Under the pieces are notes generated by a model. The model did not search any database. It saw only the letters and a program-made list of their open reading frames with translations, and was not told where the DNA came from. Positions 31,745-62,438 of a DNA stretch of 64,000 nt are shown piece by piece (position 1 is the first letter of the stretch; every line of letters begins with the position of its first letter). The translations under genes and the position numbers were made by a program. Location: positions 310,001 through 374,000 of the forward strand of contig QPMI01000056.1 in the NCBI GenBank assembly GCA_004431415.1. Direction: 5' to 3'. This DNA is from Cyanophora paradoxa CCMP329 (taxonomy: Eukaryota; Plantae; Glaucophyta).

Positions 31745-32818
31745 GCGTCCGTGCCGCCGGGCCGAGTCCCAGACTCCCAGCCCTGCAGCTGTCTCTCACC
31801 AATGTCTCTCAGTGCCGGTCCACAGCTGCAGACACGTATACGTACATGTAGGCGTCGTGCGGGCGGGCGACGGCGATAGGTTCACGGTTGAGCGCTTCGC
31901 GCTGCCGACTAGATTTGAACTAGCTGGCCTTTGGCTGCCTCATCATGGCATGATCAGGTCGGTGCCCATGCCATGGACCGCTAGGTGCCTAGGTCAAGTG
32001 GGAAAAAGTCTGCCTTGCCTGGCCCAGTACTAGCTATAGTGGCCTGCCGCAGTGCTGTACGGTATACAGCTACCGCGCCCCTTAAGCAAGACACGGCAGA
32101 GGCAGGCTTGAAATATATATATGCACGTGCACAACTTGGCAAGCCGGCAGCCAATTGTAAGGCCTAGGCAGTGGACCGTCGGACTCCGGGACCGCGCTCC
32201 TGGCCGCACTGCGGGAGTCTGCGGCAGGACCTAGTACTCTGTACTCTGCGATCAAGCCTTGAAGCCTTGATCATGATCATGAAGGGGCCGATCGGATACG
32301 ATATACTAGATGATAATACTGGCCCCCGGGGCCCCGCCGGGCCGGGGGCCGGGGCCCGGGCCCGGCGGGCCCGGCCCCAGGCCCCAGGGCCGCGGCCCTG
32401 GCCATATAATTATAATACTATATATATGATATCGATACGTAGTACGTACTGGGCCACTACTGGCCCCGCGGCCGGGCGGGGCCGGACCCGCCGGGCCGGG
32501 CGCCAGCCGCGGGCCCGGGGCCGCCGCCGGCCCGCCGGCCCCACCGTCCTCCACGATATCGATCGTATCCGCGTTAACGTTCGTGATCATGATCACGATA
32601 TCGCCGAGTCGATTTTATCGCCGATCGATATCGCGAGTCACTGAGTCGTCGTCATATCGATCTTTCATCATTATCGATATCGGATCATCATTCGGATGCA
32701 CACTGCACACACACTGTGAGTCTGTGACACATATATCATAGTTGCAAGTTGAGCATTAATATTGCACATGTACACGTTAAATTAATGCCAAGAGGGCAAG
32801 CGCTGGCCTTGTCTCAGT

Positions 32819-32847
32819 TGTCAGGGCCCTTGGTGTGCACCCCCCCC
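32819..32847 (+). repeat. Left terminal inverted repeat of the giant element
   Basis: TGTCAGGG-N6-GTGTGCA-C8; pairs with 52002-52031. Confidence 0.85.
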
Positions 32848-33403
32848 AGGAGCATTTGCTTCAATTCCCGGAGGGATTGTTGTATATGGTCATGGTGCAA
32901 GGCAGGGGGCGGCGAGCGGGGCGCTCCTTGGTGGAACAAATACGTAGGCACATGCACCGGGCATGGCAGCGGCCAGGCAGGCAGTCCCTGGCAGCCGATC
33001 CTGGCATAGTGAACAGGAGCCCGGGGCGCGGCGCCGGCGAGCTAGTAGCGTAAGAGGTCTTTGTATCATACATACAAGTGGTTCGTGTGGCCGGGCGGGC
33101 TGCGCGCGCGCTGCCCTGGACGCGCGCCCGTCGAGCGTGCGGGCGCCAGCTCGGGCACTCAGATGCATGCCGGCAGCGCTCAAACCTACCACGGATGCGA
33201 TGCTAGGTCGCTGAAGATGCTGCGCGCGCCCGACGCGGCCCAGCACTCGGTTTTGACGACAGCGTCAAGGGAGGGGGGGGTGCAGTGAATTTTTCGACCG
33301 CGGGAACAGCCGGCGGCAGACCGCCGGAGAGCCGCCCCAGCCGGCCAAAACAGCGATAGCCTAGTGCACGGAGCTGCGGGCGCTCATTGCGGTTCGCCTC
33401 GCA

Positions 33404-35601
33404 ATGAGCGGCTTCGAGATTTACATCGACCCGGAGATTCTGGAGGAGTATGTGGCTCAGAAGAGAAAGGCGAGGGAGATCGTGGCTCTGCTGCACGAGG
33501 AGCACCAAATCCAGATTTCGATGCGCGCCCTGCGCTACAAGCTCAGCGACCTCGACCTCTCGACGGACTACTCTCTCTCAAAGGAGGCAGTTTACGATGT
33601 CGTAGAAGAAGCGGCGACTTTGTGCGGCGACGGATACGGCTACGACGCGATCCGCGGGGCGCTCAGGGCCGCGGGCATCACTGTGGCGAAGTCTAGGATT
33701 CAGCACGCCCTCGCGGAGCTGGATCCGACGGGACGCAACGTTCGCCTGGGCGAGTTCGCGAAAAAGCGCAGGTCCATCCACCGCTCGACCTTCTACGGGT
33801 CCGCGCCGCCACGCCGCCCGTGCCGCACCGCCGCGCCGCGCTGACGCACGCCTTGTGCGCAGGAAGTTCTTCGGCTGGAGTGTCGGTTTCGACCAGAACG
33901 AGAAGGCGGTGCCGTACACGAACGTCTACATCTTCGCGGCCGTGGAGAATACGTCCACATTCATCCTGGACTTGCATTGCGGGCTTGCTCGCTCCACTAT
34001 ACAAGGCTACAAACTGTACAAGTGCGCGCGAGGGGCACACGCCTCGCAGCTGCGTGCTCCGTGACCCCAGAGCTGCAGGTCGGTCGTGGAGGAGTTCGGG
34101 GTCTTCGACACGGTCTCCTCGGACTGCGGCGCAGAGAACCGGCTGACCTGGACAGCCCACGTGTGCTCCCTCCCACTCCTCTTGCTCACCTGCGCCGCAC
34201 CTGACCCCCGGGGCGCGGCCACCGAAAGGCGCTCGTGCTGGAGGAAACCGAGCGGCTGATCGACGAGGAAATTGCGAAGGGCAACATCACGGACCCCACC
34301 ACCGGCCTTCCCTGGCGGAGGCTCAACTTCGAAGATCCCAACGACCTGCGCGACGCCGTCATGGTGGGCCCATCCTACCGGAACCCGAAGGTCGAGAAGA
34401 ATTGGAGGTGATGGACACGCCCTCTCCCCACGCATTCCTTCTGTATTTGCTCTCTCCGGTAACACTCCATGGGCAGGTGGGTGAATGTCAAGGTCACGAA
34501 GCCCATCGTGGATGCGGCTGTGATGCTGGAGATGCTCGAGTGGTACAACAGGTGCCCTTCGTGCGACCCGCCAGTCGATGACAGCTACAGACCATGATGG
34601 CCATCCCTATGTACATGTTGGAAGGCTACAATCAGTTACTTCTGGCTGAGACTTGCCAAATTAAGAGCTCTTAATTTGCATGCGTGCATTCGAATTCACT
34701 TGGCATGCATGCTTATTATTCTCCGCTTGCATTCAGACTCGACCCTCAACAGCTGTTTGCCATGGCGAAGGCGACCATGTACGTGATGGAGTACGGCCTC
34801 GCCATCGCGAAGAACAGCTGGAACCACCACGTGAATTCAGGCTCCAAGGAGACGGGGGGCAGAACGGCAGGCCAGACTGGTGGTATGCACTGCGGCACCT
34901 GTTCCCTGTTCTTTAAATTGTGCTGGTCCCAGCTCACTGGGCCCGGGTGCAGGCGCGAGAACATGAACTACATGCGGCCTCTGATGTTCAACCTGCCAGA
35001 GTGGACGGAAATGAAGGATATCCACAACCAGAGGGGCGGCTCTGTCAACGGCTCGGTCCTTGACAGCCGCATGAAGGACCCCGTTGAGCCCGACTTCGTC
35101 GTCTTTGACGAACCCCGCACGACTCTCCGGTGTGAAATTACCTGCCCCGGGCACTCCCTTCATTGTTTATCAAGCTTCCTCACGCTCAGGATGCTGCGGG
35201 ACGAGATGTTCAAGGAATGCAATGAGGACTTGAAGGAGATCTGGAAGCATGTGGTCAACTTCGGGCGGGAGTATGATGAGGAAGCTCCGGGGGTACGTGG
35301 ACGCATTGCGGAGCAGTACTCCAGCAACCCCCTTGGAGGGCTCCCCCGGCTCTTCTTGTTCATGCTGCAGCTGAACGAGCAGCTTTCCGACCTGCACCTG
35401 TACGATGTGTCCATCCCCGGCTGGATGCAGTGGGTGCACGACGCACCCGCCAACAACGACGCGCCCCGTGCCCGGTCAATGCAGGGGATGGGCTTCTTCC
35501 CACCGGACGAGTACCTGCTGGAGCCCCAGGAAATGCGTGCAGCTTTCTTTTATTATGTGCACAATTTCGATCCCCTCGTGCGCGGCCCCCGGGCCCGCTA
35601 G
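33404..35601 (+). CDS. IS3EU-type DDE transposase (Clr5-like/HTH N-terminus plus integrase core), multi-exon, apparently intact
   Basis: N-terminal LRYKLSDL..GYGYDAIRGALR..LAELDPTG; catalytic D (GWSVGFDQNEK, 33891), D (VSSDCGAEN, 34122), E (GPSYRNPKVEKNWR, 34394); downstream SWNHH; the introns I traced through the catalytic core keep the frame. Confidence 0.88.
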
Positions 35602-35752
35602 GCTAGCCCTCTAGCGGCCCTCTAGCCCTAGCTTGATATAGCTAGCTCTGGCTATGTCTAATGAAACGCTCTCTCCTGCTCGCACTGGGCGGGAAAGGAA
35701 ATGGAAACATCCACATACAGCAAAGTGACATTGACCTAGGCCTAGAGCTCGG

Positions 35753-36347
35753 GATGAACATCCAGAGACAGAACTACCTTCAAGCTTCACCTCGGCTGCA
35801 GCCAGCCTAGATGCGAGCAGCTCCCCGACAATACCTGCAGCTCGAGTGAGTTTCCAAATGCCTGCAGGTGCGGGGACGAGCGCAAGGACTCGATGGGGCG
35901 CACGGGGCTCAAGAAGAGGGGGAAGCGCGGCCGATGCAGACGCGCTTGCGTGCGCGCTTTCGCCACGCAGCCGTGGGCCCTTCCGCGACTCCGGCGATCG
36001 TAATGCTCCCGCCAGGCTTGCCGGAGCGCGCGCCGAAGCCGCAGCGGGACGCCACCTGCGGTATTGACGCCATCGTAAATGGCCCGTGCGGCGCCGCGGG
36101 CGGTGCACGGGCGCTGCGCCGGCGATGGGATCGCAGTCTGTGTGTGTACCGTAGGCGGATGCGAGCCTCGGGCGTGCCTATTCGCAGCCCGCCGCGAGGA
36201 ACAGGTGGTGTTGCCAACTGGCACGCCCGAGCGAGGCGGCGCGGGGCGGGGCTGGGCGGCGCCCAGGTCACTGGCGGCTCGCTCGCGCCGAGCTCGCTGC
36301 AGGAGCGCTCGGCGGGCTCCGGGATGGCTGAGTCCGGTGTACCCGGA
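35753..36347 (+). repeat. Long internal inverted repeat, arm A (5' region of the RING-PHD gene)
   Basis: Near-identical core (~35870-36347) plus diverged flank matches the reverse complement of 45146-45787. Confidence 0.9.
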
Positions 36348-36368
36348 GAATTGGGGTACACATCGAAA

Positions 36369-38577
36369 ATGCGCACGCCGCGTCTGGCCTCGCCGGCGCA
36401 GCTCAACACACCCCAAAAGGCGCGCCGTGAAAGCTATATAGCCGAGCGTAACCACTGGATCAAGTACCGTCACGCGGAAGCGATTGCTGACTGGGCAAAC
36501 GGCGGCTTTGAAGGACCGAAGCCGCAGCCGCCGGCGCCACCCGAGGACCTCATAGCTAAGACAGCTGTTGAGGACAGCACCTGCAGACAGCTGTTCGCTG
36601 CGCAGCCCGCCGACCAAGACGTCGACGCCAGCCAGCAGCCAGCGCCAGCCACCGCCATCAGCTGCAGCCCGCCTCAGAAAGCGACCGTTGACGTGCACGA
36701 TTGCGCTCCGCACTCCCCCCTCGCCCCGTCGCCGGAGCCGATCGCCCTTAGTGCAACGGTCACTGCGACGTGCGTTGCCCGCGATCCGTCGCCATCCGCG
36801 CTGATGATACCTGTACAGGAATGAATCAGAGCTAACTGAAAACAAGGCTGAGGAGGCGGCGCCACCCGCGCCGGCTGCGTCGCCGGATGTGCCTGGCCGT
36901 GTGCCCGTGTTCCTGTTCTTCGTTCCAGTCGAGTGCGTGCTCTGCTGCTGCACAACAGTTGTACCAATCTCTTACAGTCGTGCGGCGCCCCTAGGGTCGA
37001 TCCTGTGCCGCCCACGCCCGCTCCTGCTGAAGAAGTTCTCTGCCCCCCACGGAGGAGGAGTTAGCCGAGATGGCGGCTATGGACTTGTCCGAGGGCGCTA
37101 TACAGGAGCTGAGGTCTGCAGATGCTGCTGCATAGCAGATGTTTTTGCTGACAGTCGTGAACGTGCAGAGCACGTGCATCAATTTCGAAGGAGGACAAGG
37201 AGGCTGTTGATCTTCTGATCGGGATCAATGCAACCTGCTCAGTCTGTTTGAGCTCAGTCCAGGATCCTGAGAGAGGGCTCCCTGTGACGGTGGCCGACAG
37301 CGAGGGGAAGATCTGTTCCCACAAGTTCCATGAATCCTGCATCATGGACCTGCTGAAGCACGGGAGGCCGTCCTGTCCTGAGTGGTACATACTAATCCCG
37401 CCCCCCCCCACCCACCCCCTGTGACAGTACCCTTTCTGATCTCTTTACAGTCGCATGGATATCCGCACTGTGGCAAGGCTCAGCGGTGAGAGAGTGAAGA
37501 CCATCTCCGAGGCTGAGTTCAAGGAGTGCAACCAGCACTTCCACGATGACGTCGGCCTTCAGGCAACGGAGGCTTTAATCATTGCGGAGGCAGTAGATGC
37601 GGGCGCAGGTTCTCAGTCTCAAGCACCCCCTCTCCCCCCTCCAGACTACCGCAGGCAGCCTGGACGGCGATGGACTTATCGTTGCCTCGTCTGCGGCGAA
37701 AACTTCCCCAACTACCACAGCCACCCCTACTTGTGCTGCCACAACAAGGAATCCATCTGCCAGCACGAGCCGGGCGGCTGCGGGCGGTCGGAAGAGGCGT
37801 GCATCAAGCGAAAGCACGTCAGGGAGAGATGCATGAACGCCTACCACCCTGAATGTGTGAACTTCGTGGTCGAGAATGGATTCAAAATGATGGAATATCT
37901 CTGTGTGTCCTTTGCATTACATTCGCGATTCAAGACCTCGCTAACGTTTTGTGTAGGCCTCGCCTGCTGCTGCCAGAAATGCCATTTGGCCGGATCGGAG
38001 GATGATCCCTCTCTGAATGGCGAACTCCTCATCTGCGATGGGAGGGCGTGCGGCAGGGCGTGGCACGTCGAATGTGCTGGTTTTTCGGATGCCACCATAC
38101 CCGAGGGCAAGTGGTACTGTGCGTGCCTCTGGATACTGGATGTTCATGCATCGCATTCCTAACACATGCCTTTTAGGCCTTGAGTGCTCGGAGTCAAGGG
38201 AGAAGAAGAGGAGGAGGAAGGAGGAGCGGCGGCAAGCGATGCGGCGTGCAAAGGATGAGCGGCGGCAAGCAACGCGGCGTGCACAGGAGGAGCAGGAGGA
38301 AGAGGAGGAGGAAGAGGAGGAGGAAGAGGAAGAGGAGGAGCAGGAGGCGGAAGAGGAGGAGCAGGAGTCAGAGAACGAAGAGAACGAAGAGCAGCTGAAG
38401 CAGAAGGAGGCGTGGGAACAGCGGAAGCGGCTCACAGCAGCGCGCGTCAGCGCCGCCCCCACTGTCGGCACAAAGAGAGTGCGCGAGGCGAAACAACGCC
38501 AGGCGGCGGCCCTCGCGAAGATTGCCCAGCACAGGCAGCGCACTGTAGAACGTGCCGTAGCGAGCATGAGAAGATAA
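36369..38577 (+). CDS. RING-H2 plus tandem PHD finger protein with acidic coiled-coil tail (alternative in-frame ATG at 36324)
   Basis: CSVC...CSHKFHESC...CPEC; PHD1 CLVC..LCC..CMNAYHPEC..YLCLAC; PHD2 CQKC..LLICDGRACGRAWHVEC..IPEGKWYCLEC; poly-Glu tail. Confidence 0.85.
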
Positions 38578-38623
38578 TCGCAGGCTTTGTATGCATCTGT
38601 GCGCACAATGTAAATATTTTGAT

Positions 38624-40650
38624 TCAGGGCTCAAGCTTGAGATCCTCGTCATCCCGGGCAGGGTCACAAACTACAAGAGCTAGCTTGCGGATCCGTTCCC
38701 TCCACTGCCTGATCCAGCACTCATTCGCACTTCCATCTGGTTTACTTGTGAGCAGCTGTGAGCGGAGAGCAGCCTGCACGTTGAGCTGGCTATCGCTACA
38801 TGTGGGGAACATGAGCGTGTACACAGCAGCCCAGATCCACACACCGCACTGGAGCAAAGTGCATCAGGAAAGACAATACAGATACTCTAGAAAAGAACTC
38901 ACATCGACGCAATTAAACTGAACAGCGTGGTCGTAGATGTTCCCCAGCACACTTACTCTATGGGAGTGGAGCATATCTGCAACCTTACCCAATGTTTTCG
39001 TCCAATTCATTGAATCGGCGAAGGTGCAGACAGTCTGACGTCCTTCTTTGCGGAGGTAGCCGAGAATCCTGTGTGTTGCATCAGACATCGATCTACGGAA
39101 GCAGTCTGCACGGCACACCAGTGTCCAACCTCACGCCCTGTGGGTGTCCTGTGATTTGTGTTGAAGCAAAAGAGCACATGCTTGCCCTGTCGAGCTAAGT
39201 CGACCAGCAGATGAATGTAGGCCGTGTTGTCGAGGAGGCCGAAGGGGCACGGGCTCTCCACATGCCACAGCGGGTTTCTCCATTGACTGCTGACAAGCAT
39301 GAGAAGATAGATGCCTGAGGGCACAGACACACACGGAAGAAGTCGGTCAAAACCATTGATCTGAGACAGAACGAAGAACTGTACGTTTACCTGTCTGCAC
39401 TTGAGAGGTAGTAAGTGGAATCTTGCCGTCTTCGGGGATCATCGCCAAGTCATCAATGACATTCCGCACATACTCTCGTACTGGTTTCTTGGCGTCGCTG
39501 ATCTTCATCGGCTTCAGTTCCTGACGACCTGGCATGGAACTGTCAGTCAATTGCCATCAACTGTGCATTCTGCAGCATACCCGGCTTCTGGTCGGAAGCT
39601 ATGCATTCCTCCCCTTCATCCCATTCATTCCTATCGGTTGTGGCCGGTGTAGGATTTTCGATCTCGACGTCGACCACAGGAATCGACATGCCCACAGAGC
39701 GTAGAGCTGCTGCTCGGGCAGGCCTAATCCTCCGAGAAAGGGGCGAGACGGCGACGGCAGGGCGGGCGGGGGACGGGGAGGTGGAGGCAGGAGGGGTGGC
39801 AGGAGGGGCTGGGGGAGGAACGGAAGGAGGCGCGGGGGGAGGGGCGAAGGGAGAGGCGGAGGGAGGGGCAAAGGGAGAGGCGGGGGGAGGGGCAAAGGGA
39901 GAGGCGGGGGGAGGAGGTGCGGCAAAGGGAGGAGGAGCGGGGGGGGAAACAACCCCATCTGCCGCGGCATCTGCCGCGGGGGGGGCTGCAGCGGGAGGGA
40001 CAGCAACGAGCGCTGCGGCCAGGCGCAGCGGCGGATCCTTCTTGAAGGCGTCGGCAGCGAGCCGGACCAGGAAATCTCTCAGCGTCTCGCGTGGTGCGTC
40101 CTTGTACACGTGCATGTAAACGGCTTGCACTTGCGCGAGCATTTGCACGCATGTGTGCATATGCGTGATCACAGGAGGCCCGCATACTCCGTTTTCCCCA
40201 TAATACACCGATTCCGAGATAGCACACCTGCAGGCAGAGTCAGCGAACACCGCGCACGAGTTACCGCGGCGGGGCGCACGCGCGGCCAGCGATAGCCCCG
40301 ATCCAAAGGAGGATCCTGCAGATCTCGCAGACGTGAACGACACGCTTCGAGCTATCTGTGTAAAGCTGGGTGTTGCGCTTGACTTGCTGCCCCGTCAAGG
40401 GATCGTACACCTGCTTGCTGAACGTGTCCTTCACGCCGAGGATCATGCATGTCTGCTCCAGGTGCCGCACGCCGACGGGCAATCCTGTATCGGGATCCAG
40501 ATCGTAAAAGCCGTTGGCTAGCCCCCAGCTCGGTTGGCCGCCGGCATCCGGGGCAGCACGATTCCTGCGCGCGGCCTTTCCCGCGCCCGGCTCGCTTGTC
40601 TGCGCGTCTGTACGCGGCCTCCGCTTCCGTTCCTCGGCCGGCGCTGACAT
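38624..40650 (-). CDS. Ulp1/SENP-like (clan CE) cysteine protease with N-terminal extension and Pro-rich linker
   Basis: After splicing: VLFCFNTNH...GH|WILGY (His), TFADSM (Asp), VQFNCVD|CGVW (oxyanion Gln and catalytic Cys). Confidence 0.82.
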
Positions 40651-40904
40651 GTCTGCCGTGCCGAAGGCCGCCTATGTGTATTGACGGCTGCCCAAATGGG
40701 CGTCAGCGCGGGAATTCCCGAAGATTGCGCGGGGCGTGCGGGCGTGATTTAGCACAAGAGGGCTAGCACCGCGGTAGGAGCTGAGCAGAAGCCTTGCCGT
40801 TGAGCTCACAGCAGGAGAACGGGACGGCGGGTGCTCCGGCAGGGGGTACCGGTACCGAAGCCCCAGCGCTGGGATCTCGAGCTGGTGGGCAGTTCCGAAG
40901 CAAA

Positions 40905-41613
40905 ATGTATAGGCAGCTGCGTCGTCTCGCTTCGGCCGGAGGTACTGAACTGGTATGTGCGCTGAGTGCGCTGCGCCGCCAGTGGGTCGCCTGTGCGCTA
41001 ACTGCCAGGCTGCACTCGCTGCCGGCAGGTAACGGCAAGGACGCGTGGTGTGAGCGTGCGCTCGTTCGACTGCCGCTCGTGCCGCCAGTATCGCTGCGAG
41101 TAAAGTTTGCCGCAGACCCCGCGGCGAGGCCGTCTGCCGCGCACCACCGCTGCCATCGGCATCGATCGCCGCGCGGGCTGGCTTCTGCCGAAGCAGTCGG
41201 GCATCTGGCGCGCCGGGACCGGCCTCTTCGTGGAGCGGCCGGGCGTGCGCCGTGGTGCAGTTGTTTTCAGACCAGGTGACCTCATCACCCCGTACCGCGG
41301 GACGATCTACACGAAGACTCAAGCGCTGGAGATTTTCGCTCGCGAGCCCTCGCGTCGCCTCTACAGCATCTCGTTCAAAGGCAAGTACGGGCACACGTAC
41401 GTCCTCGACGCCACCGACTTTCCGGAGGCGAGCCTAGCGCGCTTCGCAAATGACGCGGATAAGCCCGGGACTCACCCCCGCTTCTCGAACAACGCCTTCT
41501 TCCGCGTGGAGAAGGACGGGCAGGTCTGGCTAGTCGCCGACTGCGTCCTCAAGCAGGGGATGGAGATCTTCGTCCCGTACGGGCAGCTGTACTGGAGCGT
41601 GCTGGCTCGCTAG
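40905..41613 (+). CDS. Stand-alone SET-domain lysine methyltransferase of viral/bacterial type; start uncertain
   Basis: KQSGIWRAGTGLF, FRPGDLITPYRG, VLDA, LARFANDA, NNAFF, LKQGMEIFVPYGQLYW; no pre-/post-SET Cys clusters; two phase-0 introns upstream of the SET exon (41116-41613). Confidence 0.85.
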
Positions 41614-41878
41614 CTCTCTTCTCGTATCTCACGCGCTATCCTGGCGTTGTAGACCTCCTTTTCTCTCTTTTCCGGTTCTGTTTCTTCTCCCATCCAAATG
41701 AACCCAGTCTCTCTCATGCCAGCAGCTAGCTCTGGGATGGCAGACTGGCCTGCGGCTGCGCACGCGCCAACGCGACACCGCATGCACTGTGCGTCGAAGC
41801 GGGATGCGATGGCAAAAGAAAGAGCGCGGCTCTTGATGGGATGGGAAGAAATGTGACGCGAGTGAGCGCGCGACGTGT

Positions 41879-43171
41879 CGCGGCAACCGCGGCATTTTGA
41901 GTCTATCCGCGGCAACTCCGCGGCAGTTACGTGAGAATTAATTAACCACGAAATTAAAAAAGGGGGTAGTCCAAATGACGCGGCATCTTCGCGGCATTCC
42001 GCGCTACTAACAAATTCTGCGGCAATTACCGGTAGATGTCGTTAAATCCGGCAGTTGGCGACAGAACGCGGCATCCAAGGCGTCGTCGCGCTGCTTTCGC
42101 GGCTCTCGCCCGAGAATTAATTAACCACGAAATTAAAAAGTGGGGGTAGTGTGATTGACGCGGTGTTTCCGCGGCACTCCGCGCTACTAGCGGCAATTAC
42201 TGCCACACGTCGTCAAATTCGGTAGTTAGCGTCAAAATGCGGCATCCGCGATGGAATCGCGTTTTCTACGCGACGGTTTCCCAAGAATTAATTAACCACG
42301 AAATAAAAAAGGGGGGTAGTCCAAATAACGCGGCAACTTCGCGGCAGTTTTCCCTAACCGCGGCATGATTTGACAATCGCGGTACATTGCGGTTGTTCGC
42401 GGCAAATACGAATCGCGGCGTCAATTCTGGCTTGCCATCTGGCGCGGATCGTGAGCTTCATGATCATGAGGCGCGTTTTCTCCCGCGTCATGATGCCTGC
42501 ATGTCCAGAGGTACTCTATAAATATTTTAATCATGTTTAGGAGGAGGCGGGATTGTGCATGCAGACCACAGACACATGTGTCGAACAGAAAAGTACAGGA
42601 TGAACTGTCAGACTGACAATTCATGAATTGCCATAAAGCACTGAAGCTAGGGTGGTCTGTGGAAAAAGCGCACACGTTCTAAGCATGATTAAAATACTTA
42701 TATAGTTCCTCTGAACATGCCTGCATCATGATGCGGAGGAAACGCGCGTCATGATCATGAAGCTCATGATCTGCGCCTCATCGGGACATACGAAGCGACG
42801 CCGCGGTTCTGTAGAGCCGCAAAATGCCGACAAACCTCGCGAGAACCGCTAATTGCCGCTAGTAGCGCGGAGTGCCGCGGAAACACCGCGTCAATCACAC
42901 TACCCCCACTTTTTAATTTCGTGGTTAATTAATTCTCGGGCGAGAGCCGCGAAAGCAGCGCGACGACGCCTTGGATGCCGCGTTCTGTCGCCAACTGCCG
43001 GATTTAACGACATCTACCGGTAATTGCCGCAGAATTTGTTAGTAGCGCGGAATGCCGCGAAGATGCCGCGTCATTTGGACTACCCCCCTTTTTTAATTTC
43101 GTGGTTAATTAATTCTCACGTAACTGCCGCGGAGTTGCCGCGGATAGACTCAAAATGCCGCGGTTGCCGCG
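41879..43171. repeat. 1.3-kb quasi-palindrome with an iterated AT-rich motif
   Basis: 41879-42199 is an almost perfect reverse complement of 42850-43171; inner imperfect IR ~42448-42540 / ~42679-42777; five copies of AGAATTAATTAACCACGAAAT(T/A)AAAAA..GGGGGTAGT. Confidence 0.95.
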
Positions 43172-43252
43172 GATGACGCGGATTGTCGCGAACGTTCAAA
43201 GAACGCGTTCTGCCGCGGAATGCCGCTCGGGGGTTCACACTACCCCAAGACG

Positions 43253-44115
43253 ATGGCGGGAGCGTCGGTGGACAGCAGCACGCAAGTGGAGCGGCCTTGC
43301 TGCAACGAGAAAGTCATGACGATCGTCGAGCACAGTCTGAATGTGCGTTGCCTTTGTGGTCCGCGCGACGGTAGCGGGCGCCACCAGCTATCTGATGAAC
43401 TTCGGAATTCCCACAGCACCTCAACGAGAGGCTTGCCGATAAGCAAGCGGAGGTGGACACTTTGCACCGAAAGGTGGCCGAGATGGAGGCCAGGGAGAGA
43501 GCGAACGAATTCGTCGGACCGCAGATTCTGGGACTGACAAAGGTGCGCGTGCGATGCGCATGCGGCCGCTCAGCATGCCTCAGCTCTGCGGCAGGACGTA
43601 TGCGACAGGTACCGCGAGGTGAAAGAGGAGCTGAGCAAGTCTCAGAAGGCGCTGGCCGATGCGAACGCCCGAATCCGTGAGGTCGATCTGGGACTGACAA
43701 AGGTGCGCGTGCGATGCGCATGCGGCCGCTCAGCATGCCTCAGCTCTGCGGCAGGACGTATGCGACAGGTACCGCGAGGTGAAAGAGGAGCTGAGCAAGT
43801 CTGAGAAGGCGCGGGCCGATGCGAACGCCCGAATCCGTGAGGTCGAGGAGGCGAGCTCGATCTTCGCAGTACGATGCTCGGAGCTCGCAGTGCGATGCCA
43901 CGTGCCTTAGTTCTGCTCGCAGATCCTTGGCAAGAGGATGCGCGACGAATTGGAGTGCGGGTGCGCACGAAGGACAGTGCGTGGTCATTCCATTTGCTGC
44001 GCCTAGACGTGCCGCGCCTTTGCTGATAAATGTGCCCGATGCAGATCTCAAGGACATCATGGCCTACAGAGCGGGTTGCGACTACATCGGTGTGATGCTG
44101 GATGCACGCCCTTAA
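43253..44115 (+). CDS. Small coiled-coil protein with a tandemly duplicated exon+intron
   Basis: HLNERLADKQAEVDTLHRKVAEME; a 160-bp unit (52-nt intron + 108-nt exon DVCDRYREVKEELSKS..ADANARIREV) occurs twice at 43527-43846. Confidence 0.65.
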
Positions 44116-44349
44116 TGAGATCTTTGTAGGGCTTCAACTCCGAGAGATCCCCTCAGGCTTCATTGTTTTTCTGTTCAGATGCTTTTAAGTCCATATTGAT
44201 TGCCTTTCTTGCCCGGCGGCCCCTGTGGCTTGTGCAGCGTGTCAAAGGAGCAAAAGTAGCTGCTTAAAGAATAATTGTACACAAATGAAAGGGCACAAGC
44301 AAGGAACGTGCAAAGTGAAGGATGCGAAGGGCACATGCACACGAGTCAC

Positions 44350-45124
44350 CTACTCCATCATTGACCTGTACATATCTATAGGTCTGTAGATTTTCTCGGG
44401 CTGGTCGGGACCGAGGGTCCAGCCGTAGGCAAATGCGAAGTACCTGTGAGCAAGCAGCGCCTCAGCGGAACAGCGGAACGCATTGCAGCGGCGCGGACCC
44501 GTTGTATCGGGGGCGCGCGCGGGCGTAGTTGACGAAGCGATCGCGGAGCTCCTTCCGGCCCTGCACAGCTGGGTTGTAGGGCACGGGCATGTGTGACCTG
44601 CACACCGCGGCAAGGCACGCGTGAGCCAGATTGGGATAGACTGGGGATATACTAGTGCAGCATGGCAGATCGCACTCTATCTTCATGGCCGCGGCGCTGG
44701 CGACGCGCTGAATCCATGACTCCGACGCTTTGATTCCTCGCTCGCGGAGGATCGCGCGGATCCCGCGGACCTCGCGCCACACCGGATCGAACACCGCGAG
44801 GGCCTTCCGAATCCTCGACTTCGACGCTGTGATGCCTTGGGCGCGGAGGGCCGTGCGGATCATGCCGCCGCCGAAAAGGGGGCCATTTAAGTTAACAACC
44901 TCCAGCACGGCGACACAAAGGACATTGAAAGAGAGAGCGTAGTTCGTTGAGAGGCCAAGCTCGCGGAGCCTGGAGCGCAGAGCGCGCCTGTTGAGGTTGA
45001 TGCCGTGCTGCTCGGCTAGCAGAGTCAGTATCTCAGCGGCCGTCTTCCTCTGGTCCACGTAGCCGCGCAGAGTCTCCTCCTCGATGCTGCTTGGCTGGGC
45101 CGGGCTCGCGCCACCCGCGGCCAT
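44350..45124 (-). CDS. Truncated paralog of the element's transposase (DNA-binding part only, ends just after the first catalytic Asp)
   Basis: LRGYVDQRKTAAEILTLLAEQHGINLNRRALRSRLRELGLSTNYALS aligns to LEEYVAQKRKAREIVALLHEEHQIQISMRALRYKLSDLDLSTDYSLS; last exon AYGWTLGPDQPEK vs FFGWSVGFDQNEK, then stop. Confidence 0.8.
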
Positions 45125-45145
45125 TTCGCTGCGTACCCAACACCT

Positions 45146-45787
45146 CCCGGGTACACCGGACTCAGCCATCCCGGAGCCCGCCGAGCGCTCCTGCAGCGAG
45201 CTCGGCGCGAGCGAGCCGCCAGTGACCTGGGCGCCGCCCAGCCCCATCCCGCGCCGCCTCGCTCGGGCGTGCCAGTTGGCAACACCACCTGTTCCTCGCG
45301 GCGGGCTGCGAATAGGCACGCCCGAGGCTCGCATCCGCCTACGGTACGCACACAGACTGCGATCCCATCGCCGGCGCAGCGCCCGTGCACCGCCCGCGGC
45401 GCCGCACGGGCCATTTACGATGGCGTCAATACCGCAGGTGGCGTCCCGCTGCGGCTTTGGCACGCCCTCCGGCAAGCCTGACGGGAGCATTACGATCACC
45501 GGAGTCGCGGAAGGGCCCACGGCTGCGTGGCGAAAGCGCGCACCGTGGCACGCAAGCGCGTCTGCATCGGCCGCGCTTCCCCCTCTTCTTGAGCCCCGTG
45601 CGCCCCATCGAGTCCTTGCGCTCGTCCCCGCAGTTGCAGCTAGGCATATGGACACTCACGCGAGCTGCAGCTAGGCATATGGCTATAGCTAGGCAGTCTC
45701 TGGTCAAGGTAGTTCTTTCTCTGGAGCTGCTCGCATCTCGGCTAGCTGCAGTCTCTGGTCAAGGTAGTTCTTTCTCTGGATGTTCAC
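45146..45787 (-). repeat. Long internal inverted repeat, arm B (5' region of the transposase paralog)
   Basis: Reverse complement of 35753-36347, with small internal duplications at ~45635-45780. Confidence 0.9.
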
Positions 45788-45877
45788 GAGTACAGAGTAC
45801 AGAGATGATTGCACACCCCTCAACCCCCGGACGCGTGGTTACGAAAGGACAAGAAAGCATTGCACTGAAGAAACATG

Positions 45878-47856
45878 CTAGGGTTTAGCATCTGGATTGT
45901 TAGTGTCTAAGACCCGGCTGTTCTTGCTTTTTTTGACTATGGCGAGGCCACCATTGCCGTTGCTTTCGACTATTGCTGACCACACCTGTATTCCTTCCTT
46001 GTTGAAGGCTTTTTTCTCTTTCCACATCCTGGTCGACATGTCGAGCTTGAGTGGAATCGTGTTGCGCCCGTTCTCCAGAACCCGCTTCCAAATGACTGCA
46101 TGCCTCTGCTTCTCCTCCAACTTGCACACGCCTGCTGGAATCTGGAAATGAACGTCCACAACGTTCTTCCTTCCGGCCTGGTCTACAACCCGAATTTCAG
46201 GCAGCGGGATCTCATCGGTCTCGCTGCGATTTCGATCATTCACGTGTAAAAGAACACACAATTGAAGGGAAGGGCTACACGCACGTGATTCGTCTTTTCT
46301 TCCTTCCTGTGCTCTTCTCCTTGGGGCCCTTGCTGCTGCCCCCCGCCTTCGATCGCTTCGATTCTGAAGAAAGTTAGGATACAGACGGGAGTCTTTCGGG
46401 TTCACACGTGCCATCATCGGCCTCGACGCCGTCAGGAGCCACATCCTCGTCCTCGTCCTCGTCCTCCTCTTCCCCCCCCCCTCCTCCTCCTTCTGAAGAT
46501 CCACAGGGGGGGGTGGAGGTATAGCAGCAGGCGGGGCAGGAGGCAGGGCAGGAGGCGGGGAAGGGCCCCGCCCTGCTCCAGCCAACGCTTTGTCCGCCAT
46601 GGCATTGAGAAGGAGGGCCCGCTCCTCTGGAGTGCGGCGACGAGCCTCCTCTTCCTCCTCCTCCTCCTCATCTGCTGACCCGTGAGCTGCAGCCGGACCC
46701 GACGGAATTTAGTACGCGCAAGCACAAACGTGCCCTGGCTCGTCCGATGCATTCTCCTGCTCTCCAGCCCGGCAATTGCCTTCTGTGAGCCGTGATCAGG
46801 ATGCGGGCAGGAGAGTGAAGGGAAGGACACAAACCACGCTGTCGATGTTGTGGGAGGTTTTGAGATTCTCCATAAAGAGAGCACGCAATTTAGTCTCGGA
46901 TTTGAACTGTTGATTCACCAGGAATACGATGAACGGTTTAGCTTCGGCCAGAGAAATCGGCTGTTTCTCAACCACGTGCTTGCTCATGAGACTCTCCATA
47001 TCGTTCATCTTATCGTCAGGAAACACAACGTCCCCGGCTTCCCGCTTGCACATCTCGGCACACGAAAGCCTGCAGATACGAGTCAGCGGAGCGCAGACGG
47101 GGTTCACCATCAGAATGCTCACAGATCTGCGGCGAGGGACAAGGAAGCCTTCGTCCTCTGCTGGGCACATTTCGTGGCTTTCTCGGCGACGAACTTCGTC
47201 GCGCTCCCCAGCAAGAGCTTGGTTTTTTGGTTGCCAGGAAGAGTTTCCGCTGGCCCCACGGTCTTCTGGATCCACTGCAAGTTGAGTTGGTCTGTGTGCT
47301 GCTCGATTTTGTTCAGCAGTGAACATGCCGCGCGCGCCTGTCTGCGCGGGCCGAACCTGCTGCGGGGTTCGCTTTGGCTTGGACGTGGCGCCGATGCCCC
47401 GCCCGCGCTGCCTGTGGTGCAGCTGCTCCGCCGACTTCGCCTGCTCCGCGAGCAGCTTCGGCACATCGCAGGGGTTGGTGCTGATGAAGTAGTATAGATT
47501 TCCCTGCCGGATGTGCTTGTCGAATATCTGCGCGCATTCAGAAGCAGGCGAGCATCGACGGGCGGCGAACTGCCGACCTGCTGGTTGGGCACCCAGTGGC
47601 CAGCGCCGCAGAGCACCACGTAGAGTTTGAGCAAGGGCCGTGCGAATTCGGGAACGTCGAAGATCGCCGCCACTTCGGCGATGAAAGCATCTAGTTTCGC
47701 CGGTGCCAGTGACACGGTGTTCTCGCCGTGCTTCGATATATCCTTCACGGCTGTTACGATGAGGTCGGGGAGCTGCTCACCCGGCTGCTCAAACTGCGCG
47801 GCCGCGACAGCCGCCACGGGCGGCGCAGGAGCACCGGCGGCCGCAGCCGGGAGCAT
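45878..47856 (-). CDS. Unknown multi-exon cargo protein with acidic and Pro-rich tracts
   Basis: Coding-like exons (LPDLIVTAVKDISKHG..LLKLYVVLCG; EAKPFIVFLVNQQF; IRVVDQAGRKNVVDVHFQ..) separated by short GT-AG introns; no family recognised. Confidence 0.6.
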
Positions 47857-47899
47857 GGTAACGACGCGTACCCCCTGGCTTGACGACGCCGTCAAACCC

Positions 47900-48504
47900 A
47901 TGGACTCGCGCAACCCGGCACCTGCCGCGGCCGGCGTCTTTGAGTCCGGGCCGCTTCGCGGCAAGGAGTTCACTTTCCGGCGGCCTGCAGCAGCCCCGAG
48001 CCGGCGTCCGCTGCGGGCGCCGCTCCCTCCGAACGCGAGCTCATCGCCGACCTCCAGCGGCAGCTGGAGGCGCTCACGGTGGAGGTGCGCACGATAAAGA
48101 CGGAAGTCGAGGAAGGTACGCGGCCGCCGTCGCCCGTGGCGCGTCCTCGTTTTGAACCGCCATCCGCGCCGAGCTAGGTCAGCGCCCTGCGCCCCCCGCA
48201 GCCCGCCGCGCGCAAGCTCGGCGCAACGCATCTCCTCCTCCACCGAACGAGAAGTACACCGGGAGTCCGTCGACGGGCAAGATCCACAAGGTCTCCAAGG
48301 TCTCGGGCCAGAACCCGACGTGCCCGGCCCTCCGCGTGCGTACAGCTCGCGTGCCCCGGCTTTGAGGCACTCAGTAGCTAAAGGCGGTGCGCGCAGATGA
48401 AGGGGAAGATCCTCTGGCCCGAGTTCAGCTCGGAGGAGGCGCTCCGGGCCTCGGACCCCAAGTACAACAAGGAGGGCGCTCGCTGCCGCAACTGCTGGCG
48501 CTAG
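47900..48504 (+). CDS. Small coiled-coil plus Ada-like zinc-binding domain protein (needs one extra C near 47976); full protein not in the ORF track
   Basis: ELIADLQRQLEALTVEVRTIKTEVEE; spliced C-terminus YTGSPSTGKIH...TCPALR|MKGKILWPEFSSEEAL...ARCRNCWR* fits the Y.GS...K.H..C...F.S.EE....R.CxxC pattern. Confidence 0.6.
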
Positions 48505-48915
48505 GCGCTAGCCGTGCGGGGGTCGCTCCCCTCCCGCGGCGCTTCCTGTTCCGCGTGAAGCTCTGTGAACGTGTCGCTGAGTCGTGCTCTGAACACGAGA
48601 TGTTGTTGTCAACTTGGGAAGGGAACCTTGAAGGGATGCATGCATGGCCAGGCACGCAGAGAGGAGAGCGCAGGCACACATACGAAATCAATCCAGATTG
48701 CACACAAATACATACACAGCGATAAACAGCCGACATAGATACATACACAGCGATAGACAGCACATTACTATAGATAGCAAACACATGGATACATATATAG
48801 AGTTGCGAGCCCAGCGGGAGAGCTCGGAATGGACATGAAGGAAAATAAAATCCTACCAAGAGCACAGGCTATCTGCAGCTACTGCTGTGCAGAGCTAGCA
48901 GCTACTTCAGAGCAA

Positions 48916-51900
48916 CTACTGCTGCCCCTTCTCCTGCTGCGCCTTCTCCTTTGCGGCCTCCAGGTCGAGCCCGCCGCTGGCGAGGACGGCGTAGTTCATC
49001 GTGCGGGCACGCTTGCGCGAACCCTCCGCCGCCGGACGGGAGCTCGAGGCGGCCGGGGTGTCGAGAGGGAGGGGATCGGAAGAGGAGGAGCCGAGCTTGG
49101 GGTCAGGGAGGGGCGGGGCCGCAGGGAGGGCCTGGGCTGCTGCCTCCTTCTCCGTCTTGGACCGCCGGCCCCGCTTCGGAGGCGCCGGCGTTTTCTCCAC
49201 GTGTTCCACGTCCTCCACGGGCCCGTCCTCCTCCTCGCAGTGGCAGAAGTCCTTGGACCCCTGCCGGCACACGCCGAAGCAGGGCCCCTGGTAGCACTTG
49301 TAGCCGAGCCAGTCGCAGACGAAGACGTGCTTGCTGGTCCTGCTGAACTTCTCCACAATTTCGTCGTGCTCCGGGTTGCCGATGCGCTTGTAGCCGCAAA
49401 CACTGCAAGGATGGACGAGGAAAGCAGACTTCCCTGCTCCAGAAGCATGAGACAGGGGACGGCGAGGGGCAGAAACGGGCGTACCGTTGCGGGCATCCTT
49501 CATCGCGTCCTCGAGCTTGTCCTCCGGGACGACGTACGGCCGCAGCTCCAGGTTCACGAGCTCCCGATGGGCATCCTCGATGCGGAGCTGCTGCAAGAGT
49601 CAGGCAGTCCCTGCAAGGGTTGGGTTGGAGCCTGAGCTGTCACAGACCGAGAGCGGGCGAGTCATGCCGTCCCGCAGCTTGAGGACGTCGGTGGGGCACA
49701 TCTTGTGGAACATGGCGGCGTGGCACATTGCAATGCCGTTGACATACGACTGCAGGAGGGCGCCGCCCGACGTGGATTGACCAGCCGCTCCGGGTCCTTG
49801 CGGTTGAGGGAGTATTTCTGCTCAGCACCAGAGTGAGATTCGGTGGACAGAGGGGAACTAAGCAGGAAGGGCAGTCTGAGAACCTTTTCGGGCGTAGTCA
49901 TCGTCCGCAGGATGGCATGCTGCGACCCCGCTCGAAGTACATCGATGTGAGCACCACACCGATGTAGTTGCAGTTCGCCTCGTAGGCCATCACCTCGGTG
50001 AGCTCTGCACGGGGCACATGCATCAGAGAAGGGCGCGGTGCATCGGGTGCCAGGAGAGCACAACGCACTGGACACTGGGAAGTTGTCAGGGGTGATTTCA
50101 TTCACGGCGTCCTGGAAGTTGTTGGGCCGCCGGCCCGCGCCCTTCGGCGGCTTGTTGGGGACGAACATCTTGTACACTTCCAGGGGCTCCTCAGCGTTCA
50201 GCTTCTTCGTCATGAACGCTGAGAATGCATCTGCAGATAGAAGAGCAGGTGCTAAGGTTAGACTGAAGAGGGACCTTTACAGAAAGGAGCACAAGCCAAG
50301 AAAGGAGAAAGGAGCACAGACCAGCGAGCTGCGTGTAGGGGTGCGGATCAAGCATGCCTTCGATCTCGATTGTGATGGTCGTTGGATCCTTCCGGACGTC
50401 CCGAGCTTGAAGACGACGTTGTACCGGGGCTCCTGGAAGTCGGCCACACCACGGCTCCGGCGGGCGGCCAATTCAGCCTTCTTGTTTACGAACTGCTCGA
50501 AAGCAAGCGGTCAGTGTGCTCTAGAGGCCAGAGAAGAGGAATCAAAGGGCATGCACGCACGTCCCTGACAATCTTGGCGGTGGGTTCGCCATGAAGATGA
50601 TGTGCTGGCCAGTCGGTTTGGCCAAGTGCTTGTTCACGAAGAGGTTCCAGTCCTGCATGCTGACAGGGTCCTGCGGGTGTTCAAAAAGCATGCAGTGAGC
50701 ACAGAGAAAGAAGGAAAAAAGGAAGAGGTGGATGGGGAAGAAGAGGACGCAATGCATGCTGCTAGGCGGCTAACCTGCATGACCCACATCTTCTCGATGT
50801 TGTCCAGGGGACGACATGCATCTTCTTCGCGGGGTTGCTCGGATCCACGATCTCGGTGATGACAGCCGTGGCAACAGTCAGCGTGTTCCCCACTCCGGCT
50901 GGTTCGCGCTGCGGTTCGTGATGTTCCGCGCCATCTCGAAGCCCTTCGGGTCGAAGTAGTTCACGAAAATCTCCTCGCTCAGGATGTGTACTGCGACGAA
51001 GACGCGCGATCAGGTTCGAAAGGAAGACCCGCGCAATCACGGAAGCAACGAGCCGAGGATCGCGACGCACTCGGTGCGGAACTCTTCCGAGGATCGCGAG
51101 CATGTCGTGGAGAGGCTTCCAGGCCGCGTCCGCGGCCGGGGCGTAGGTCGCGAATGAGAAGGGCGTAGGCTTGACTGCCTCGATTCCCTTTCCGCTCTTC
51201 ACCGCGGCACCCGCCGCAGCCATGACCTTCTCTTTCTGAGTGACCGCGGCCGCGGCGGCCTTGGCCTTCGCATTCGTCGTCACCTGGGCGCGAGGGGCCA
51301 CCTTGCGAGGGGTCGAACCCTCCGGCTGCGCGTATAGCGTGAGGAGGATCGCATGGCGACGCGAGGATGCGGGCGCACGATCGTGGGCCCGCCCGAGCCT
51401 GTGCGCGTGGCGCCAAAATTTGAATGTCAGTTGGGCGCCAAAATTTGAATCGACATGGCGGCGATTGCGAGCGCACCGCGCCCCGAGCTCGCGACCGCGT
51501 CCGCAAGGCCCTGACTGGAGCGGCCGCTAAACCGGACCCCGAAGGTGGCCGCCCGTTGGGCGGGCTCGGCCGGCGCGGCGACCTCGGGCTGGTCGTCTGC
51601 GCGCCGAGCGGTTAGCGCGGGCGGCGGTTAGCGTGAGCACGCGCACCCATTGCCGTGTAGTAGACGCCCTGCTTGCCCGTCTTCCAGCCCGAGGTGGAGC
51701 ACAGGAGGCTGATGTCTTCGAGCTCCTCCGACGTGCCGTCGTGGCGCTTCTCGAGCACGAATTCCATGTTCTCGGCGTCCAGATTCTGAAACACAGTCGT
51801 CTTGAGCAGCCGCAGGACAACGTCAACGGGGCGGGCGTTGAGCATGTCCGGCTTGAAATGCACAGGCGGCGCATCCGGGCTGCCCTTCCTGTGGATCACG

Positions 51901-51959
51901 ACACGTTCGATTTCTCCCGCGGGCACGGAGCCCGCCGCGGGTGCCGCCGGTGCCGCCAT
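48916..51959 (-). CDS. Large unknown cargo protein with C-terminal CW-like zinc finger; several 1-bp frameshifts (error or decay)
   Basis: Exon chain from MAAPAAPAAG..; C-terminal HPCSVCGYKRI...VFVCDWLGYKC..CFGVC..CHC, followed by a PKRGRRS basic motif. Confidence 0.6.
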
Positions 51960-52001
51960 GTTCAAAAATTTGCCGCCGAGTTTGAATTGACGTATACCGG
52001 G

Positions 52002-52031
52002 GGGGGGGGTTGCACACGTTAGTCCCTGATA
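52002..52031 (-). repeat. Right terminal inverted repeat of the giant element
   Basis: G-run-TTGCACACGTTAGTCCCTGATA followed directly by TSD CTCAGT. Confidence 0.85.
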
Positions 52032-52442
52032 CTCAGTGAAGTTGGCAACTTGGCAAGTTGAAAATCAATCCAAATGATGGCAAGATTCGCAACTTGCAAG
52101 TTGCAAGTTCTTTCCAAGGCTTTCACCGGGCCTCGGCAATGAATATTATTGCAATTGCGGCCGCGTTAATAATTGCGGGCCTTTTGCGGCGATCGAAGTC
52201 CGCGAGGATAATATCCGGAATCCGAGATCCCCAGTACATGATTCGGAGTCTGATGGTAGGCAATGCTAGGGCTAGCTATAGCATTGCTACTAATTTGCTA
52301 GGCATTGTAGCTTAGTAGGCAATGCTAGGCATGCGCATTGGCCCAGTGGTACTAATTTGGAACTTGGAAGCCGCATATTCCCCCCATAGTACCTAGCCGC
52401 CGCGGCCGTGCCGCCCGCGGCCCGCCGCCCGGGGCCCGGGCC

Positions 52443-62421: not shown

Positions 62422-62438
62422 GTGAGTCAAGCATCTAG

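What the first reader, a model, noticed from the sequence alone, without database searches (positions are those of the whole stretch)
40905..41613. Minimal viral/bacterial-type SET methyltransferase inside a DNA transposon
Seen: a compact SET domain with SGIxxAGxGLF, RFAND and EIFVPYGxxYW, lacking pre- and post-SET zinc clusters, in a single exon with two small upstream exons. Established: this stand-alone style is typical of giant-virus and bacterial SETs (chlorovirus vSET methylates H3K27). Inference: a virus-derived histone methyltransferase captured and partly intronised by the transposon.
Basis: partly seen in the sequence, partly recalled or inferred. Interest (0 to 1): 0.75.

Follow-up and report, generated by a model that had tools for sequence, protein, structure and literature searches.

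The report
Algal transposon carries compact SET methyltransferase
A 19-kb multi-copy DNA transposon of the alga Cyanophora paradoxa carries a spliced gene for a small SET-domain protein of a type common in giant viruses and bacteria, which likely methylates proteins and may help the element resist silencing, though its viral origin and histone target are unproven.

Summary
40905-41613 encodes a 190-aa stand-alone SET protein; all quoted motifs are present and both 5' introns are spliced out in 4 of 4 RNA-type runs laid. The host is Cyanophora paradoxa.

The gene lies in a 19.2-kb element (32819-52031) with a 6-bp target duplication, short imperfect inverted ends and a Clr5/integrase-core DDE transposase, IS3EU/GingerRoot-like. 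SET and transposase models sit together on two other contigs; a third joins both element ends. Other cargo: RING+PHD, a probable Ulp1-type protease, a truncated transposase.

The SET belongs to a compact group found in giant viruses, phages, Bacteroidota and at least one eukaryote host gene. Trees do not name a donor: AU tests rejected neither a giant-virus nor an E(z)-type sister. No link to vSET or H3K27 was shown, and the introns show no trace of lost coding sequence.

SET cargo is known in HarbingerS and MuDR elements, and this scan noted SET-carrying transposons before in other genomes. Verdict: real, new variant of a known kind; viral origin about 45%.

The parts
32819..52031 (.). 19,213-bp IS3EU/GingerRoot-like DNA transposon, multi-copy
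   Evidence: 6-bp direct repeat on both sides and inverted ends; single-copy contigs stop at 32848 and high-depth contigs begin from 32878; model P0091 on another contig joins left-end and right-end sequence
32813..32818 (.). left target site duplication CTCAGT
52032..52037 (.). right target site duplication CTCAGT
   Evidence: chance of a 6-bp repeat at such offsets 0.0033
32819..32848 (+). left terminal inverted repeat (starts TGTCAGGG), imperfect, about 30 bp
   Evidence: alignment score reached by 13 of 2000 random pairs
52000..52031 (-). right terminal inverted repeat (reads TATCAGGG inward)
33404..35601 (+). full transposase gene with introns: Clr5-like HTH plus integrase core (PF24764); candidate D142, D200, E268
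   Evidence: (27-29 bits, cut-off 26); catalytic residues assigned by eye from motifs
35832..36368 (+). left arm of an internal 550-bp inverted duplication, directly upstream of the RING-PHD gene
   Evidence: 94% identity
36369..38577 (+). RING finger plus PHD finger gene with acidic tail, spliced (boundaries approximate)
   Evidence: RING E 9e-7, PHD E 1.5e-7, intron joint in 3 of 4 RNA-type runs
38624..40650 (-). spliced gene divergent from the SET gene; C-terminus has an HW...D...Q...DCG pattern like Ulp1/C48 cysteine proteases
   Evidence: introns in 4 of 4 RNA-type runs, translation; family call by eye from recalled motif, no Pfam or PDB hit on single exons
40905..40952 (+). SET gene exon 1 (coding part)
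41029..41055 (+). SET gene exon 2 (27 nt)
41116..41613 (+). SET gene exon 3, whole catalytic domain and stop
41879..43171 (.). MITE-like insert with 322-bp inverted arms (99.7%)
43253..44113 (+). spliced coiled-coil-like gene with an internal 160-bp tandem duplication (boundaries approximate)
44350..45124 (-). spliced 213-aa truncated transposase paralogue (49% identical over 107 aa), DNA-binding part without a full catalytic core
45124..45673 (-). right arm of the internal inverted duplication, directly upstream of the truncated transposase
45674..51990 (-). further intron-bearing reading frames of unknown family in the right part of the element
   Evidence: no informative Pfam or PHROG hit

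Best explanation
This is a spliced, stand-alone SET gene carried as cargo by a multi-copy IS3EU/GingerRoot-like DNA transposon of Cyanophora paradoxa, and its product likely acts as a SAM-dependent lysine methyltransferase on host chromatin, probably helping the element stay expressed or mobile. Shown: gene structure, splicing, SET fold, location within the element, co-occurrence with the transposase on other contigs. Predicted from conserved residues: SAM binding by G59-x-G61 and N137, catalysis by Y180, with W185 in place of a post-SET zinc site; V178 rather than Tyr at the switch position would allow more than one methyl group (rule recalled). Inferred: the two added exons give an Arg-rich disordered tail (9 Arg in 34 residues) that would direct it to the nucleus or nucleosome; it works with the co-carried PHD/RING and protease-like genes against host silencing. 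The gene most likely entered from the pool of compact SETs shared by giant viruses, phages and bacteria, a giant virus being the single likeliest donor (about 45%), and gained introns in this intron-rich host.
For: Gene and fold. N137, N151, E175 and Y180 are invariant in 53 of 53 aligned relatives. Element: 6-bp duplication and inverted ends. Five SET gene models on at least four contigs. Transposase models lie 3 and 2 gene numbers from SET models on tig00000113 and tig00020921. P0091 joins left end (33404-33838, 100%) and right end (51790-51987, 98%). Contig depth over the SET gene is 5.2-9.3 times the left flank in 4 of 4 DNA runs (a hint only). Chromatin role: PHD and RING cargo; the host methylates CpG on DNA transposons and holds giant-virus insertions (PMC12344493 passages); SET cargo is framed as counter-silencing in PMC12730594 (Introduction). 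Origin: nearest relative P0006 (40% identity, E 3e-20) resembles clusters that are 100% viral, commonest Nucleocytoviricota (phylum known for only 4, 1 and 6 members); a 96/93 branch parts the compact group from the one E(z)-type protein.
Against: No activity or substrate was tested. The same SET group is common in Bacteroidota (110 of 120 prokaryote loci returned) and phages, where the substrate is unlikely to be a eukaryotic histone. The NHS motif reads ND. Trees give no starred sister, and AU tests reject neither alternative tried; only one canonical SET and no Cyanophora host SET was in the tree. An intron-bearing compact SET among ordinary eukaryotic genes exists (L001), so a eukaryotic source is open. 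For the query itself two of the three best Atlas clusters are bacterial. CpG observed/expected is 0.88-1.22 in element genes against 1.11-1.14 in flanks, which says nothing for or against escape from methylation. The protease call rests on motifs seen by eye.
Confidence: 0.5

Rival explanations
1. It is an active methyltransferase with a non-histone target, such as the element's own transposase, another cargo protein or a small molecule.
For: Relatives abound in Bacteroidota and phages. The fold list includes non-histone SETs such as BurB bound to methionine (Z 9.4), SETD6 and SETD3.
Against: It sits beside a PHD/RING gene; the best fold matches are histone enzymes (SET8 Z 15.4), although these dominate the PDB.
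Confidence: 0.22
2. It is a passive passenger, copied only because it lies between the element's ends and giving the element no benefit.
For: Copies are nearly identical (RNA-type contigs 99%+ alike), so no selection test is possible. Two of four distinct models carry frameshifts, although these may be assembly errors. An internally deleted copy exists. PMC12730594 describes TET genes as passively passed between transposons (passages).
Against: The gene is about 60% diverged from its nearest relative yet keeps every invariant SET residue, has gained clean introns and is spliced in four studies, which implies long purifying selection.
Confidence: 0.13
3. On origin only: the gene came from a eukaryotic source (an old stand-alone host SET or another transposon), not from a virus or bacterium.
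For: L001 is a compact SET of the same motif type with three predicted introns among housekeeping-type genes. A diatom-dominated cluster scores 0.95 against the nearest relative. The AU test does not reject grouping with an E(z)-type protein (p 0.229). GC3 of 0.80 fits the host.
Against: No PDB SET matches at E<=1 while 76 other proteins match at E<=0.001 in a far larger library; the 19 of them looked up come from metagenome or run assemblies without organism names. The nearest relative is unspliced in form and resembles giant-virus clusters.
Confidence: 0.35
4. It is a vSET-like repressor that deposits H3K27me3, for example to silence host defence genes or limit the element.
For: Compact size and lack of zinc clusters; vSET trimethylates H3K27 and is the smallest such enzyme (PMC7019647 passages). 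EZH2 domains are among the fold matches (Z 12-14).
Against: No sequence match to any PDB chain at E<=1 (that vSET is in the PDB is recalled). A repressive mark is not an obvious benefit to a transposon.
Confidence: 0.1

Closest known systems
SET-carrying DNA transposons: HarbingerS and MuDR families of Phytophthora (cited in PMC12730594; the Repbase reports themselves not seen)
   Same: A DDE DNA transposon carries a SET lysine methyltransferase gene as separate cargo.
   Different: Here the transposase is integrase-like (IS3EU/GingerRoot type), the host is a glaucophyte, the SET is a compact viral/bacterial-type protein, and RING-PHD and protease-like genes ride along. The SET type in the oomycete elements was not compared.
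IS3EU/GingerRoot superfamily (PMC10045372, PMC6839031, PMC12730594 passages)
   Same: 6-bp target duplication; integrase-like DDE transposase without an HHCC motif; can carry chromatin-related cargo (TET/JBP, alpha-kinase in fungal families).
   Different: Ends are TG...TA with imperfect repeats of about 30 bp, not TAYGG..CCRTA or 100-150 bp; no SET cargo is reported in the passages read.
Chlorovirus vSET (PMC7019647 passages)
   Same: Small stand-alone SET without zinc clusters.
   Different: No detectable close sequence match; 190 aa with an Arg-rich tail and a different motif set (RFAND); dimer state and H3K27 specificity untested.
Compact SETs of Nucleocytoviricota, large phages and Bacteroidota (uncharacterised)
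   Same: Shared S-x-I-x-x-AG-x-GLF, AND...NNA and YG-x-x-YW motifs; up to 40% identity.
   Different: Intron-bearing and nuclear-encoded; lacks the N-terminal C-C-C-H motif seen in 25 of 82 proteins checked, including the nearest relative.

Membership tests
SET-domain lysine methyltransferases | SET fold | tested here: met
   pLDDT 81.5 model; Z 15.4, rmsd 2.5 A, 136 aligned to SET8; Foldseek E 2e-7
SET-domain lysine methyltransferases | GxG, RFxN and E-x-x-x-x-Y catalytic motifs | tested here: met
   G59/G61, R134-F-A-N137, E175...Y180; His of NH replaced by Asp as in many relatives
SET-domain lysine methyltransferases | SAM-dependent lysine methylation | not testable with these tools
   needs an enzyme assay
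Conventional histone SET families with zinc clusters (Su(var)3-9, Set2, SET1/MLL, E(z)) | pre-SET/AWS/CXC or post-SET cysteine clusters | tested here: not met
   one Cys in the 190-aa protein; it ends five residues after YW
Conventional histone SET families | groups with them in a tree | tested here: inconclusive
   96/93 branch separates it from the one E(z)-type row but the AU test does not reject grouping (p 0.229); no Cyanophora host SETs in hand
vSET (chlorovirus) | close sequence or structural likeness | tested here: inconclusive
   no PDB hit at E<=1; not among rows shown, which does not exclude it
vSET (chlorovirus) | homodimer that trimethylates H3K27 | not tested
   no complex job sent; activity needs an assay
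Giant-virus-derived gene | nested with support among SETs of Nucleocytoviricota contigs | tested here: inconclusive
   no starred sister; grouping with the GVMAG clade not rejected, p 0.162
IS3EU/GingerRoot | 6-bp target site duplication | tested here: met
   CTCAGT at 32813 and 52032; one insertion site only
IS3EU/GingerRoot | integrase-like DDE transposase without HHCC motif | tested here: met
   PF24764 above cut-off plus Clr5-like HTH; D142, D200, E268 by eye; the link of PF24764 to IS3EU is recalled
IS3EU/GingerRoot | termini TA..TA, occasionally TG..CA or an altered second base | tested here: inconclusive
   TG at the left, TA at the right: fits the GingerRoot exceptions, not 'always TA..TA' for IS3EU
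IS3EU of rust fungi / GingerRoot of Selaginella | TAYGG..CCRTA ends; repeats over 30 bp or 100-150 bp | tested here: not met
   imperfect repeats of about 30 bp starting T(G/A)TCAGGG; hence filed as IS3EU/GingerRoot-like
IS3EU/GingerRoot | placement in the transposase tree | not tested
   no reference transposases were available as tool sequences

The most novel reading that the evidence does not exclude
A giant-virus chromatin enzyme was captured from an endogenised virus by a eukaryotic cut-and-paste transposon, refitted with a nuclear-targeting tail through new exons, and now works with a PHD reader, a RING ligase and a SUMO-type protease as a four-part, transposon-encoded anti-silencing kit.
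Probability: 0.15. Interest if true: 0.8.

Novelty: new variant of a known kind. Interest (0 to 1): 0.5.

Why it matters
Transposon-encoded SET enzymes are known only from sequence in the papers read, and the compact viral/bacterial SET group has no solved structure among close relatives and no known substrate. This element offers a 190-aa, spliced, multi-copy example in a culturable alga with a published methylome and known giant-virus insertions. It makes two questions testable: do transposons write their own histone marks to escape silencing, and do they recruit such enzymes from viruses?

Tried and rejected
No whole genome was held, so copies could not be aligned, other target duplications read, or host SETs added to the tree. 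The nearer 550-bp inverted pair (35832-36368, 45124-45673) was first taken for the element ends and rejected: depth rises at about 32850 and the full transposase lies outside it. The third intron of model P0002, which would remove the catalytic Tyr motif, was rejected: RNA-type contigs run through it in 4 of 4 runs. Intronisation test: a profile of the N-terminal zinc motif (25 relatives) scored at most 1.3 bits on 12 frames of the 5' region, below the top 30 of 1200 background frames. A single-sequence fold was useless (pLDDT 35.6). Peptide-pattern scans of viral contigs with P0006, P0007, P0008, P0014, P0010 and alignment A3 found no relative; three alignments had no conserved stretch to search with. 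The genomic context of the nearest relative P0006 was not obtained; the metagenome scan gave only L001 and the phage collection nothing. PHROGs: 0 of 13 proteins hit. vSET was not among the rows shown. No run was on record as RNA; the RNA label is a guess backed by the GT-AG joints. DNA cover is absent over about 46-50.5 kb in 3 of 4 runs and past 49.2 kb in the fourth; records are filtered, so this proves nothing, but the right part lacks depth support. Trees used subsets: 80 of 82 proteins (P0046 and P0052 too short), 80 rows with 48 of 175 locus proteins plus L001, 40 rows chosen by me. The DNA pattern was built from the group's C-terminal motif, so those loci are a biased sample, and the genome scan covered 27 of 64 parts. 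My first translation of the truncated transposase was out of frame and was redone.

Full report
Observation. The frame 41104-41613(+) has all three motifs quoted and ends five residues after the final Trp. Pfam SET scores at the cut-off (22.5 bits for the ORF; 22.1 for the spliced protein). The only close hit in 5.8 billion clustered proteins was a EukProt model (1 of 201 candidates). Its cluster holds four sequences, five accessions, all Cyanophora paradoxa, on at least four contigs. Contigs of 4 of 4 RNA-type runs from four studies skip 40953-41028 and 41056-41115 (GT-AG) and run through exon 3 unbroken; the RNA label is the tool's guess, but canonical joints support it. The spliced product is identical to the 190-aa model P0003. 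Copies are too alike to say which one is transcribed. An AlphaFold model built on 53 relatives is confident over residues 41-190 (mean pLDDT 81.5) and matches SET8 best (Z 15.4).

The element. Single-copy DNA contigs end at 32848 and high-depth contigs start from 32878. CTCAGT occurs at 32813-32818 and 52032-52037, flanking 19,213 bp that begin TGTCAGGG and end CCCTGATA with imperfect inverted repeats of about 30 bp. The end alignment score was reached by 13 of 2000 random pairs, and a 6-bp repeat at such offsets has a chance of 0.0033. A full transposase lies at 33404-35601. Its models carry a Clr5-like HTH and Pfam PF24764 integrase core above cut-off, with candidate D142, D200 and E268 read by eye. 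On tig00000113 the transposase and SET models are g5679 and g5682; on tig00020921 they are g15929 and g15927. A model on tig00000743 joins the left end (33404-33838, 100%) to the right end (51790-51987, 98%), as expected of an internally deleted copy. Contig depth over the SET gene is 5.2, 5.3, 5.5 and 9.3 times the left flank, and 7.1-10.9 times over the transposase; depth is a hint, not a copy number. A 6-bp duplication with an integrase-like DDE enzyme fits IS3EU/GingerRoot (passages of PMC10045372, and PMC6839031). The ends differ from the described consensus and no transposase tree was built, so I call it IS3EU/GingerRoot-like.

Other cargo. A RING (E 9e-7) plus PHD (E 1.5e-7) gene; a divergently transcribed gene whose C-terminus resembles Ulp1-type proteases by eye only (no Pfam or PDB support on single exons); a coiled-coil-like gene; a spliced 213-aa truncated transposase; a MITE-like insert; and unassigned frames in the right 6 kb.

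Relatives of the SET. phmmer over 1.84 billion representatives gave 77 hits at E<=0.001, one being the Cyanophora model. The best other hit is P0006 (40% identity, E 3e-20). No PDB chain matched at E<=1. The group shares AND...NNA and YGxxYW motifs; 25 of 82 proteins checked have an N-terminal C-C-C-H motif that the Cyanophora protein lacks. In the Atlas the query resembles two Bacteroidota clusters and one 42%-viral cluster equally (0.96). P0006 resembles three all-viral clusters, commonest Nucleocytoviricota, with few labelled members, and a diatom cluster. A motif scan returned 55 viral loci, 8 named as giant-virus MAGs, and 120 prokaryote loci, 110 of them Bacteroidota. Three of 11 viral loci scanned have phage terminase neighbours, and a 642-kb phage record holds a relative. 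The zinc motif occurred in 5 of 55 viral and 0 of 120 prokaryote loci, which tilts P0006 toward viruses. L001 is a compact SET with three predicted introns among ordinary eukaryotic genes.

Phylogeny. Three trees place P0003 on a long branch near P0006 and P0009 in two quick trees (SH-aLRT 90 and 84) and unresolved in the careful one, never in a starred small group. A 96/93 branch parts the compact group from the single E(z)-type row, yet AU tests rejected neither P0003 with that row (p 0.229) nor P0003 with the giant-virus clade (p 0.162). The donor is therefore open. My estimate: giant virus 45%, eukaryotic source 35%, bacterium or phage 20%. C. paradoxa does hold giant-virus insertions (PMC12344493 passages), so a route exists.

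Introns. No frame of the 5' region keeps the zinc motif, so there is no sign that coding sequence became intron. The host averages 9.2 introns per gene and horizontally acquired genes gain many (PMC6704402 passages), so ordinary intron gain is enough.

Mechanism. The SAM-binding and catalytic residues are intact (G59, G61, N137, Y180). V178 aligns with the Tyr two places before the catalytic Tyr of MLL4, which by the recalled switch rule would allow multiple methylation. Residues 1-40 are disordered and Arg-rich. With PHD and RING cargo, and a host that methylates DNA transposons at CpG, the likeliest role is a chromatin-directed lysine methyltransferase that benefits the element (0.5). Rivals are a non-histone target, a passive passenger and a vSET-like H3K27 repressor. 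vSET's activity is from PMC7019647 passages; nothing here ties this protein to it beyond small size.

Novelty. SET cargo is reported for HarbingerS and MuDR elements of Phytophthora (PMC12730594 Introduction and passages; the Repbase reports were not seen). Eight literature searches (listings only, apart from the six papers named) showed no description of a SET-carrying IS3EU-type element or of this Cyanophora element. Repbase, subscription journals and supplements were not seen. Earlier notes of this scan report SET-carrying transposons in other genomes (unchecked) and none for this sequence or place. Verdict: a real, new variant of a known kind; interest 0.5.

Noticed in passing
window 35832-36368 and 45124-45673: An internal 550-bp inverted duplication (94%) sits directly upstream of both the RING-PHD gene and the truncated transposase gene, which point toward each other; it may be a duplicated promoter region.
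   Followed up: partly
window 44350-45124 (-): Spliced 213-aa transposase paralogue keeping the DNA-binding part but not the catalytic core; a candidate regulator or inhibitor of transposition.
   Followed up: partly
window 41879-43171: MITE-like insert with 322-bp near-perfect inverted arms and internal repeats of about 170-180 bp; high CpG content (observed/expected 1.56).
   Followed up: partly
window 34425, 34853, 37042, 37400: All four DNA runs show one or two more bases in homopolymers than the window, so the assembly and its gene models may carry false frameshifts.
   Followed up: no
window 44012-44099 and 49950-50038: The coiled-coil-like gene shares 89 bp at 76% with an unassigned multi-exon gene near 48.9-51.4 kb that ends in a cysteine-rich stretch.
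   Followed up: no
window 52908-53338 and about 2230-2659: Two related short elements with 13-bp inverted ends (TAGGGTTACCGTA), probably another MITE family.
   Followed up: no
window 54089-64000: Near-identical blocks repeat with periods of about 3.2 and 7.8 kb.
   Followed up: no
L001:1242-2030: Intron-bearing compact SET of the same motif type in a eukaryotic contig among housekeeping-type genes.
   Followed up: partly
L002:2938-3381: A 642-kb uncultured phage record encodes a SET of this group; the motif is also common in Bacteroidota genomes, with no known substrate.
   Followed up: partly
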